From assembly GCF_053078305.1 (NCBI RefSeq), contig NZ_CP166879.1: a stretch of DNA of 64,000 nucleotides, one strand, 5' to 3'. The notes beneath the pieces were generated by a model that saw nothing but the letters and a program-made list of their open reading frames with translations, did not search any database and had not been told where the DNA came from. The translations under genes were made by a program, and so were the position numbers. Shown here piece after piece: positions 20,995 through 21,448 of this stretch (positions are counted from its first letter, which is position 1; every line of letters starts with the position of its first letter).

Positions 20995-21141
20995 AATGTT
21001 TCCGTGCCCTCTTTTGCCATTGCCACCCAGACCGGCATTTTCTCCGCAACGAAGCCCCGACGCGCTTTTTTCCACTGTTAAAGAGTAACTTCCCCTGCAT
21101 TATACCAGCCGCATCTCCCGCTGGCGACGGAATGGCGCCCT

Positions 21142-21336
21142 GTGCCTCCGGGGCCTGACCGGGGGCTGCTTTTGCATGACAACACGAAACAGGCGGGATT
21201 TACCGACGGGATGCAGGTTAAAATCTGTGTGATGCCCGACTGCATCATCATCACCACCCAGAACAGCCGCGAGCTGTGGGGCTGCGCCGAGGGGCTGAGC
21301 GTGACACATATCAACAGGCCGAAGATGCTCCAGTGA
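21142..21336 (+). CDS. SymE-like toxin remnant (AbrB-fold C-terminal region only)
   Basis: KQAGFTDGMQVKICVMPDCIIITTQ aligns by eye with SymE [25 protein letters not shown]; only a GTG start and weak upstream similarity, so probably truncated. Confidence 0.4.
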   Translation: MPPGPDRGLLLHDNTKQAGFTDGMQVKICVMPDCIIITTQNSRELWGCAEGLSVTHINRPKMLQ

Positions 21337-21410
21337 TTTAACACCTTCCCCGGCGCTGGGCCGGCTGATGATTGAGGCGGAGTTTAAGTTCTGAGGTACT
21401 TTTAATGACG

Positions 21411-21448
21411 ATCCCGGCGCAAGGCCGGGATTTATTCTATCAATTTTT
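21411..21448. terminator. Bidirectional terminator between convergent genes
   Basis: Stem ATCCCGGC / GCCGGGAT with loop GCAAG, followed by a T-rich tract; lies between the SymE-like gene (+) and a small membrane protein gene (-). Confidence 0.5.

What the first reader, a model, noticed from the sequence alone, without database searches (positions are those of the whole stretch)
21079..21448. SymE-like toxin remnant convergent with the orphan immunity array, with its own terminator
The ORF 21142-21336 encodes ...KQAGFTDGMQVKICVMPDCIIITTQ..., matching the AbrB-fold core of SymE-type toxins, but the N-terminal half is unrecognisable and only a GTG start is available. It ends at a good hairpin (21411-21431) that also serves the convergent immunity gene. 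A SymE-family gene embedded between CDI cassettes and a phage tail remnant is an unusual pairing and may be a decaying toxin locus whose antisense partner is unannotated.
Basis: inference. Interest (0 to 1): 0.55.

Follow-up and report, generated by a model that had tools for sequence, protein, structure and literature searches.

The report
Decayed SymE gene ending a CDI array
This is a broken, already-annotated leftover of a SymE-family toxin gene with its terminator hairpin, and such genes routinely sit next to contact-dependent-inhibition toxin cassettes in enterobacteria, so the finding is real but ordinary.

Summary
The ORF 21142-21336 and the hairpin 21410-21432 are there as described. 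The product matches only the C-terminal half of the SymE profile: Pfam PF08845 positions 31-54 of 54, E 5e-6. It is 75-88% identical to the core of a roughly 115-aa enterobacterial SymE subfamily that is under purifying selection (dN/dS 0.16-0.39).

The window copy is a pseudogene fragment.
- The N-terminal ~40 codons, promoter, LexA box and antisense-RNA region are replaced by unrelated sequence.
- One base is missing after the ATG used in the closest E. coli relatives.
- A conserved Arg is Cys.
- TGG became TGA at 21334-21336.
- 86 bp of the 3' end were deleted between two CCCGGCGC repeats.

NCBI already annotates the same 54-aa ORF as "SymE family" in many E. coli drafts.

The pairing is not unusual. 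In 11 of 12 independent contexts examined, this subfamily lies inside or at the end of CDI orphan arrays, convergent with an immunity gene and followed by the same hairpin. A 2024 paper on Proteus mirabilis BL95 and E. coli M19 describes exactly this arrangement.

No antisense partner can be inferred here, because the segment that would encode it is gone. Interest is low.

The parts
21030..21059 (.). Left junction. The prophage tail-gene remnant (DUF4376 gene and the small gene upstream of it) meets the SymE-associated block across about 28 nt that both sources share.
   Evidence: Three-way alignment of the window, prophage L034 and E. coli A19 L003. Prophage match 20333-21059 at 94%. The A19-type match starts at 21035-21044.
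21044..21187 (+). 5' block that replaces the SymE N-terminal half, promoter and 5' UTR. It is shared at 96-97% with E. coli A19/O22:H8-type loci and is not detectably related to the 5' end of intact family genes.
   Evidence: nhmmer with a model of the intact 5' UTR plus N-terminal coding region finds nothing. Pfam on frame 1 and on the frame-2 repair does not extend past model position 30.
21118..21197 (+). An 81-nt stretch 79-84% identical to part of a GC-rich, multi-copy, unannotated stretch that lies next to XerC-like recombinase genes in Rhs orphan arrays of about 56 E. coli genomes.
21099..21127 (-). Sigma-70 promoter-like site TCGCCA-17-TATAAT with a TG extension, firing leftwards towards the DUF4376 gene and away from the SymE core. 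Function untested.
   Evidence: One site was found in the region, and 1.0 is expected by chance.
21144..21166 (+). Terminator-like hairpin (8 pairs) followed by TGCTTTTGCA, inside the 5' block just upstream of the SymE core. It is not conserved in the related GC-rich element, so it is probably incidental.
21142..21336 (+). The ORF of the finding (GTG start, 64 aa). NCBI annotates the TTG-21169 version (54 aa, P0007) as 'SymE family'.
21176..21186 (+). ATG 21176-21178 is the start codon of the 79-aa ORF in A19-type relatives. One base (T) is missing between 21185 and 21186, which puts this ATG out of frame with the SymE core.
21188..21333 (+). Conserved SymE-subfamily core QAGFTDGM.VKI(R>C)VMPDCI.ITTQNSRELWGCAEGLSV..N.PKMLQ. 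By the secondary structure of a low-confidence model it corresponds to the end of the helix plus strands 3 and 4 of the beta-beta-alpha-beta-beta unit and the start of the subfamily-specific tail. Arg to Cys at 21226 hits an invariant residue.
21334..21336 (+). Premature stop TGA. Every relative has TGG (Trp, invariant in the family).
21349..21364 (+). Scar of an 86-bp deletion between two CCCGGCGC repeats. One repeat lies in the FPGA codons and the other in the 5' arm of the gene's original terminator hairpin. The deletion removes the conserved tail ...ALNDTGDLPVIKRG....
   Evidence: sequence.
21350..21394 (+). Relic of the M19-type read-through tail PALGRLMIEAEFKF*, now out of reach of the ORF.
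   Evidence: tblastn with P0002 residues 96-109.
21410..21432 (+). Intrinsic-terminator hairpin GATCCCGGC-GCAAG-GCCGGGATT followed by TATTCTATCAATTTTT. It is the conserved 3' element of the SymE module, and the T-run is on the + strand only.
21456..21737 (-). Convergent 93-aa ORF, hydrophobic by eye, with no family match. It is 97% identical to the 'hypothetical protein' next to symE in E. coli M19. It is context and not part of SymE.
21756..22289 (-). Terminal orphan cdiI. It is colinear with the 177-aa cdiI of M19 but carries an in-frame stop at codon 39 (22173-22175). The whole distal module is decaying.
   Evidence: Pfam CdiI PF07262.

Best explanation
Window 21044-21432 is a non-functional relic of a SymE-family gene that marks the distal end of the cdiBAI orphan array.

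**The intact ancestor.**
- Shown on relatives: it was a roughly 115-aa protein, made of a SymE-profile domain followed by a conserved tail FPGALNDTGD.PVIKRG, transcribed convergently with the last immunity gene and ended by the hairpin ATCCCGGC-loop-GCCGGGAT.
- Shown only by sequence motifs in Cedecea: the gene is preceded by a LexA-box promoter and overlapped at its start codon by a predicted antisense RNA of about 80 nt. That is the SymE/SymR design.

**The window copy.**
- Its 5' third, with all of those control elements, has been replaced by unrelated DNA.
- The remainder carries a frameshift relative to the nearest relatives' start codon, an Arg-to-Cys change at an invariant residue, a TGG-to-TGA nonsense mutation and an 86-bp microhomology deletion.
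- Relative to the two closest reference types it is a mosaic: the 5' block is A19/O22:H8-type and the 3' end is M19-type.

**What still works (inferred).** The only part likely to act is the hairpin, as a + strand terminator between convergent genes. The 54/64-aa ORF most likely makes no functional protein.

**How it got here (inferred).** Each incoming cdiA-CT/cdiI cassette brings its downstream SymE flank. Older cassettes are pushed distally and decay together with their SymE relic.
For: **Identity**
- Pfam, NCBIfam and the database hits all point to SymE.
- The alignment with 13 family members shows the missing N-terminus, the missing Trp and tail, and the R>C change.
- An intact member covers Pfam model positions 21-54 at 52.6 bits.

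**The family is a real gene.** Pairwise dN/dS is 0.16-0.39 among seven copies from six genera.

**Lesions**
- The individual lesions are shown.
- Against M19, the core has 4 non-synonymous changes, 1 nonsense change and 2 synonymous changes, which is about neutral. I counted these by hand.
- The neighbouring orphan cdiI has a nonsense codon too.

**No control elements**
- There is no LexA box within 1.6 kb.
- There is no + strand promoter-like site.
- There is no symR match (positive control).

**Intact design in Cedecea L017**
- LexA box CTGTGGTTTTACACAG followed by TATAAT.
- Antisense promoter-like site at 7041->7014 and a minus-strand terminator at 6970->6937.
- The predicted RNA folds with z = -4.2.

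**Context**
- The same arrangement occurs in at least 23 E. coli draft contigs.
- The subfamily lies in or next to CDI arrays in E. coli (five different loci), Cedecea, Enterobacter, Cronobacter, K. aerogenes and Phytobacter.
- K. aerogenes has one SymE copy or fragment after each of four CT/immunity modules.
- SymE tail relics and the hairpin recur at module boundaries.

**Literature.** symE in the middle of the M19/BL95 CDI cluster, with 'terminator-1' 6 nt downstream, is described in PMC11278526.
Against: - The ORF is still open for 54-64 codons, is identical in many (probably clonal) assemblies, and has a G-rich stretch 7-11 nt before the TTG. Translation of a short peptide therefore cannot be excluded.
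- Nothing here measures transcription.
- The origin of 21060-21117 is unknown.
- The cassette-with-flank model is inferred from array anatomy, not from observed events.
- Terminator activity of the hairpin was not measured, and its T-tract is only moderate.
Confidence: 0.85

Rival explanations
1. The short ORF (54-64 aa; 79 aa in A19-type relatives) is a functional mini-SymE. It would be a half-domain that still dimerises or binds DNA, or that modulates a full-length SymE encoded elsewhere.
For: - The ORF is retained and annotated.
- A19-type relatives keep an ATG-initiated 79-aa ORF with the full tail.
- The core is 75-88% identical to intact genes.
Against: - It lacks strands 1-2 of the beta-beta-alpha-beta-beta unit.
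- It lacks the invariant Trp and the conserved tail, and carries R>C at an invariant residue.
- The frameshift relative to the A19 start, the nonsense codon and the 86-bp deletion differ from one relative to another, as expected for decay.
- No promoter-like site lies upstream.
- tblastn with canonical SymE finds no other copy in the 64-kb window.
Confidence: 0.07
2. It is a live type I toxin-antitoxin locus whose antisense RNA has simply not been annotated.
For: - A strong promoter-like site is present on the minus strand at 21127->21099.
- Intact relatives do appear to have a SymR-like antisense gene.
Against: - The minus-strand site fires away from the SymE core, into the phage remnant.
- No minus-strand terminator follows it.
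- One such site is the chance expectation for the region.
- The RBS and start region that SymR-type RNAs cover is absent.
- The toxin itself is truncated.
- There is no Rfam symR match.
Confidence: 0.03
3. The conserved palindrome, not the ORF, is the functional unit. It would be a cassette-boundary DNA site where toxin/immunity modules are exchanged, analogous to a tyrosine-recombinase core site or an integron attC, and SymE would be a passenger.
For: - The stem ATCCCGGC/GCCGGGAT is unchanged in about 15 of 18 copies from six genera, while the 5-7-nt loop differs in almost all of them.
- It occurs at most module boundaries, sometimes with only a few SymE codons left.
- The window's 86-bp deletion ends in a hairpin arm.
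- Related SymE genes in Rhs arrays sit in repeated units that carry a XerC-like recombinase.
Against: - No recombinase gene lies in the CDI arrays examined.
- In Rhs arrays the SymE/immunity intergenic hairpins are ordinary A-run/stem/T-run terminators with covarying stems.
- A19 has a compensated stem variant with a strong T-run.
- Recent horizontal spread could explain the stem identity.
- The genome-wide scan for the palindrome was swamped by unrelated high-GC genomes.
Confidence: 0.08
4. It is a chance ORF with a spurious SymE resemblance.
For: The Pfam match is short (24 residues) and below NCBIfam's curated cut-off.
Against: - 58 homologues at E down to 1e-28.
- 169 bp at 93-95% DNA identity to annotated SymE-family genes.
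- The position next to CDI modules is conserved.
Confidence: 0.01

Closest known systems
symE in the CDI clusters of E. coli M19 (RG63_RS00420) and Proteus mirabilis BL95 (QCK92_15945), described in PMC11278526
   Same: - Same subfamily.
- 95-97% DNA identity from 21188 to beyond 22361, covering the 93-aa gene and the cdiI.
- Same convergent position after cdiI and the hypothetical gene, and the same terminator hairpin.
   Different: - The window copy has a different 5' block.
- It has a TGA in place of TGG.
- It lacks 86 bp of the 3' end.
- It sits at the array end beside a prophage remnant rather than between modules.
- The M19 copy is itself frameshifted twice.
Intact CDI-associated SymE-family proteins, e.g. 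P0005 (E. coli, 115 aa), P0021 (Cronobacter), P0015 (Enterobacter), P0019 (Cedecea)
   Same: - Core QAGFTDGMxVKIxVMPDCIxITTQNSRELWGCAEGLSV at 75-88% identity.
- Convergent with a CDI immunity gene.
- Same hairpin.
   Different: The window lacks the N-terminal ~40 residues, Trp-90 and the FPGALNDTGD tail, as well as the promoter, LexA box and antisense region.
E. coli K-12 SymE/SymR (b4347/b4625), a type I toxin-antitoxin pair. SymE is now annotated as a nucleoid-associated protein.
   Same: The Pfam family is the same (PF08845). The motif AGF..G..V.V.VM..CI.LT.Q is shared, with 11 of 23 residues identical.
   Different: - Only 24% identity overall.
- The C-terminal half is different.
- K-12 symE lies between mcrB and hsdS and is not next to CDI.
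- It has a LexA box and the 77-nt SymR (PMC4147584). None of these is present in the window.
Orphan cdiA-CT/cdiI arrays downstream of cdiBAI loci
   Same: The remnant shares the fate of displaced orphan modules. It is truncated at the 5' side, mosaic and accumulating nonsense mutations, as is the adjacent orphan cdiI.
   Different: It is not a toxin/immunity module. It lies on the opposite strand and belongs to an unrelated family.

Membership tests
SymE family (Pfam PF08845 / NCBIfam NF010128) | Significant match to the family profile | tested here: met
   PF08845 i-E 5.5e-6, but only model positions 31-54 of 54. NF010128 scores 25 bits, far below the 132-bit equivalog cut-off. It is therefore related to the family but is not a SymE equivalog.
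SymE family (Pfam PF08845 / NCBIfam NF010128) | Complete domain (both beta-hairpins flanking the helix) | tested here: not met
   No frame upstream of 21187 extends the Pfam match. nhmmer with the intact 5' model finds nothing. The alignment shows the first ~40 residues missing.
SymE family (Pfam PF08845 / NCBIfam NF010128) | AbrB/MazE-like swapped-hairpin fold | tested here: inconclusive
   The AlphaFold model of intact P0005 has the order beta-beta-alpha-beta-beta-alpha, but mean pLDDT is 46, too low for a fold search. A profile search against PDB sequences found nothing. From my own knowledge, Pfam places PF08845 in the AbrB clan.
Type I toxin-antitoxin SymE/SymR | Cis-antisense RNA overlapping the RBS and start codon of the toxin mRNA | tested here: not met
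   There is no symR match at E <= 10, while the control K-12 symR scores 95 bits. The 5' end of the gene is absent. The only minus-strand promoter-like site points away from the core.
Type I toxin-antitoxin SymE/SymR | SOS control through a LexA box at the promoter | tested here: not met
   There is no CTGT-N8-ACAG, even allowing 1 mismatch, between 19465 and 24372. A perfect box is present in the Cedecea relative.
Type I toxin-antitoxin SymE/SymR | Toxicity of the protein on overexpression | not testable with these tools
   This needs expression of the 54/64-aa ORF and of an intact 115-aa relative.
CDI-associated SymE subfamily (defined here) | Core at least 75% identical to ...QAGFTDGMPxKIRVMPDCIxITTQNxRELWGCAEGLSV... 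| tested here: met
   75-88% identity.
CDI-associated SymE subfamily (defined here) | Conserved C-terminal tail W..K.FPGALNDTGD.P...R | tested here: not met
   It is lost through the TGA at 21334-21336 and the 86-bp deletion.
CDI-associated SymE subfamily (defined here) | Convergent with an immunity gene of a cdiBAI array | tested here: met
   The window holds cdiB 34538-36310, cdiA 25031-34525 and orphan modules down to 21456.
CDI-associated SymE subfamily (defined here) | Hairpin ATCCCGGC-loop-GCCGGGAT after the stop codon | tested here: met
   At 21410-21432.
Rho-independent terminator | GC-rich stem-loop followed by a T-run on the transcribed strand | tested here: met
   On the + strand there are 9 pairs followed by TATTCTATCA. 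On the minus strand the tail is CGTCATTAAAAG and is not reported by the scan, so use by the convergent gene is not supported in this copy.

The most novel reading that the evidence does not exclude
The SymE-family gene and its invariant-stem palindrome may not be accidental neighbours. They could be the standard 3' end of the mobile toxin/immunity cassettes of enterobacterial CDI systems, and in a related form of Rhs systems.

- Every cassette would arrive with this flank. The flank would serve either as the downstream recombination anchor or site, or as an SOS-triggered addiction module that stabilises the array.
- In Rhs arrays the same kind of gene is part of a tandemly repeated unit of about 6.6 kb. 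The unit contains a toxin tip, an immunity gene, SymE, an RstR-like repressor, a CHC2 zinc-finger protein and a XerC-like recombinase. It looks like an integrative element that installs new toxin tips.
- On this reading the window copy would be a fossil of that process. It even carries an 81-nt piece of the Rhs-unit's GC-rich end.
Probability: 0.2. Interest if true: 0.6.

Novelty: already known. Interest (0 to 1): 0.18.

Why it matters
For this window it matters little. The feature is a dead gene fragment that public annotation already labels as SymE family, and its neighbourhood is the normal one for the subfamily.

Its value is as a marker of how the CDI locus was built. It dates the distal end of the orphan array, and it shows that the terminal module (cdiI, the 93-aa gene and SymE) was once a primary M19-type module that has since been displaced and is decaying.

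The wider pattern seen while checking it has only been mentioned anecdotally in genome papers. SymE copies and one conserved hairpin recur at cassette boundaries across six genera, and a recombinase-bearing repeat unit occurs in Rhs arrays. That pattern would be worth a systematic survey, because the mechanism by which CDI and Rhs loci acquire new toxin tips is still poorly understood.

Tried and rejected
1. **N-terminal half in another frame.** By eye, frame 2 (LPLHYTSRISRWRRNGALCLRGL) resembles K-12 [23 protein letters not shown] and Phytobacter ILRDRRFRAVPLQGV.
   - Pfam does not extend over it.
   - nhmmer with a model of the intact 5' UTR plus N-terminal coding region finds nothing in the window or in A19, even at E 100.
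   - DNA alignment with Phytobacter shows no upstream homology.
   - I reject this as unsupported.
2. **SymR homologue.** There is none in the window, nor in intact CDI-linked loci at the gathering threshold.
3. **LexA box near the remnant.** There is none.
4. **Fold test.** The AlphaFold model of the intact relative is too poor to use (pLDDT 46), and the PDB sequence profile search was empty.
5. **Specificity of the palindrome.** It was uninformative.
6. **The 21144-21166 hairpin as a conserved element.** It is not conserved in the related GC-rich element.
7. **NCBIfam on the neighbouring 93-aa, 125-aa and DUF4376 products.** No matches.

Full report
**1. Observation**

The sequence is as described.
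- ORF 21142-21336 (+) starts with GTG and encodes 64 aa containing KQAGFTDGMQVKICVMPDCIIITTQ.
- The frame is open back to 21082.
- Pfam gives one hit, SymE_toxin PF08845, i-E 5.5e-6, restricted to model positions 31-54 of 54. The result is the same for the ORF extended to 21115 and for the whole open frame from 21082.
- NCBIfam's SymE equivalog model scores 25 bits against a cut-off of 132.
- A search of 5.8 billion proteins returns 58 hits at E 1e-28 to 2e-11, almost all named SymE family.
- One hit, P0007 (54 aa, MHDNTKQAGF...), is 100% identical and is annotated in E. coli. It starts at the in-frame TTG at 21169, so GTG is not the only available start.
- The hairpin at 21410-21432 folds at -17.3 kcal/mol, z = -3.7.

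**2. What the intact gene looks like**

Full-length relatives are about 105-158 aa. An example is P0005: MAKRDCKSEPCTTEAPQPTTRCEFYSRAVHKAIFLRGEWIEQAGFTDGMPVKIRVMPDCIVITTQNSRELWGCAEGLSVTYVNRPKMLQWFKTFPGALNDTGDLPVIKRGDGHCG.
- They share the SymE domain (P0005: Pfam model 21-54, 52.6 bits).
- They share a subfamily-specific C-terminal tail that K-12 SymE lacks.
- Pairwise dN/dS among seven copies from six genera is 0.16-0.39, so the family encodes a protein under selection.

The Cedecea copy (L017) shows the complete regulatory layout.
- A perfect LexA box CTGTGGTTTTACACAG sits next to TATAAT.
- A minus-strand promoter-like site lies inside codons 5-14, and a minus-strand terminator lies 40-70 nt further on. 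Together they predict an antisense RNA of about 80 nt across the RBS and start codon, which folds with z = -4.2.
- This is the SymE/SymR design described in PMC4147584, although the Rfam symR model does not recognise it.

**3. Lesions in the window copy**

All comparisons are against relatives.
- (a) Everything upstream of 21187 is a different sequence. That covers the N-terminal ~40 codons, the RBS, the promoter, the LexA box and the antisense region. The replacement is shared at 96-97% only with E. coli A19/O22:H8-type loci.
- (b) In those loci a 79-aa ORF starts at an ATG. In the window one T is missing between 21185 and 21186, so ATG 21176 is out of frame.
- (c) Arg to Cys at an invariant position (KIRVM to KICVM).
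- (d) TGG to TGA at 21334-21336, at an invariant Trp. The change is unique to this lineage.
- (e) 86 bp are missing between two CCCGGCGC repeats. One repeat is in the FPGA codons and the other is in the 5' arm of the gene's original hairpin, which M19 still has.

Further points:
- Against M19 the core shows 4 non-synonymous, 1 nonsense and 2 synonymous differences. I counted these by hand, and they are about the neutral ratio.
- Relatives P0010 (an in-frame deletion in strand 4) and P0011 (no nonsense codon, no 86-bp deletion) are intermediate decay states.
- No + strand promoter-like site, LexA box or symR-like RNA is present.

The copy is therefore a pseudogene fragment.

**4. Boundaries**
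- On the left, the prophage remnant matches to 21059 and the A19-type block starts at about 21035-21044. The prophage remnant is the DUF4376 gene at 20281-20994, 94% identical to an E. coli prophage. The two overlap in about 28 shared nucleotides.
- On the right, 21349-22361 is 97% identical to M19. This stretch covers a second SymE-tail relic (PALGRLMIEAEFKF*), the hairpin, the 93-aa ORF and the cdiI.
- The window's cdiI has a stop at codon 39.
- The distal module as a whole is therefore an old M19-type module in decay.
- The remnant is mosaic relative to the two reference types.

**5. Context is the rule, not the exception**

The window's arrangement recurs in at least 23 E. coli draft contigs. 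In order it reads MFS transporter, DUF5339, IS4, DUF4376, SymE remnant, orphan modules, and then cdiA (3164 aa) and cdiB.

The subfamily lies inside or at the end of CDI arrays in:
- E. coli O22:H8 154, M19, A19, the C5 plasmid and OW968441, and L014;
- Cedecea;
- Enterobacter;
- Cronobacter;
- K. aerogenes;
- Phytobacter.

Only the most divergent member examined, from Lelliottia, is elsewhere.

Other observations on the arrays:
- K. aerogenes has a SymE copy or fragment after each of four CT/immunity modules.
- Cronobacter and the C5 plasmid have extra fragments.
- SymE tail relics with the hairpin occur at further boundaries.

Published genome papers have noted symE inside CDI or hecA clusters and near T6SS/Rhs or orphan hcp genes, without explaining it:
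- P. mirabilis BL95 and E. coli M19, including 'terminator-1' after symE (PMC11278526);
- Dickeya zeae (PMC8386352);
- Erwinia amylovora (PMC7764402);
- Pantoea ananatis (PMC3942780).

**6. The hairpin**
- It is conserved 10-30 nt after the stop of intact relatives.
- The stem ATCCCGGC/GCCGGGAT is nearly invariant and the loops vary.
- A19 has a compensated variant, CCTCCGGC/GCCGGAGG, followed by TTTTT.
- In Rhs arrays the SymE/immunity intergenic hairpins are ordinary bidirectional terminators with covarying stems.
- In the window the T-run is on the + strand only.

The simplest reading is that the hairpin is the SymE gene's terminator, insulating convergent transcription. A role as a recombination site is not excluded but has no direct support. 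The one genome-wide scan for the palindrome was uninformative.

**7. Side lead**

Window 21118-21197 is 79-84% identical to part of a GC-rich stretch that is present 3-6 times per genome in about 56 complete E. coli genomes.
- In strain d1-58 this stretch belongs to a unit of about 6.6 kb repeated in tandem behind an rhs gene.
- The unit contains, in order: the toxin tip, an immunity gene, a SymE-family gene, an Xre-type HTH repressor, a CHC2 zinc-finger protein, a XerC-like recombinase and the GC-rich stretch.
- The HTH repressor scores 78.9 bits on NCBIfam RstR, against a cut-off of 80.

This suggests, but does not show, a recombinase-borne element that delivers Rhs tips, and that the window's 5' block derives from such an element.

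**8. Verdict**
- It is wrong that the pairing is unusual.
- It is unsupported on the antisense partner.
- The feature is already annotated and published in near-identical form, so it is ordinary.

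Noticed in passing
window 21756-22289 (-): The terminal orphan cdiI is colinear with the 177-aa cdiI of E. coli M19 but has an in-frame stop at codon 39 (22173-22175). It appears as two ORFs of 38 and 125 aa and is a pseudogenised immunity gene.
   Followed up: yes
window 21456-21737 (-): A 93-aa ORF, hydrophobic by eye, lies between cdiI and the SymE remnant. It is 97% identical at the DNA level to the 'hypothetical protein' at the same position in M19/BL95. It has no Pfam or NCBIfam match, and it is unclear whether it is an immunity protein.
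   Followed up: partly
window 21099-21127 (-): A strong sigma-70-like site (TCGCCA-17-TATAAT with a TG extension) is conserved in A19-type loci. It points towards the DUF4376 prophage gene, whose ATG is about 100 nt downstream, and could drive that gene. One such site is the chance expectation for the region.
   Followed up: partly
window 21118-21197; L033 (E. coli d1-58, NZ_AP040927.1 1436000-1452000): An 81-nt piece of the window matches a GC-rich multi-copy stretch. In d1-58 that stretch is part of a ~6.6-kb tandem unit behind rhs. The unit holds a toxin tip, an immunity gene, SymE, an RstR-like HTH, a ~910-aa CHC2 zinc-finger protein and a XerC-like recombinase. It is possibly an integrative element that installs new Rhs tips.
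   Followed up: partly
L027 (Klebsiella aerogenes) 2663-8233; L026 (Cronobacter) 4247-8969: CDI orphan arrays in which every CT/immunity module is followed by a SymE copy, fragment or tail relic plus the same palindrome. This suggests that cassettes arrive together with their SymE flank.
   Followed up: partly
L017 (Cedecea) 6841-7041: The intact CDI-embedded SymE gene has a perfect LexA box and a predicted ~80-nt antisense RNA (promoter-like site 7041->7014, terminator 6970->6937). The Rfam symR model does not recognise this RNA.
   Followed up: partly
L023-L025 (Enterobacter) 721-1047; L033 6286-6684 and 12855-13253: An Xre-family HTH gene lies directly upstream of, and co-oriented with, the SymE-family gene in some CDI and Rhs loci. 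K-12 symE has no such gene.
   Followed up: no
window 18093-19420 (-): An IS4-family transposase is split into two ORFs (N-terminal 126 aa and DDE 308 aa). It lies between the DUF5339 gene and the prophage remnant and is probably a frameshifted IS copy.
   Followed up: no
window 21100-21459 (-): A 119-aa ORF lies antisense to the whole SymE remnant. It was called as a gene in one draft assembly (L012 7929-8288) but has no family match, and is most likely spurious.
   Followed up: no
whole window: CTGT-N8-ACAG with up to 1 mismatch occurs 39 times against 23 +/- 4.7 expected, and 0 of 100 shuffles reach 39. Many of the matches lie inside cdiA (25031-34525), so this is probably a codon or repeat composition effect rather than LexA sites.
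   Followed up: no
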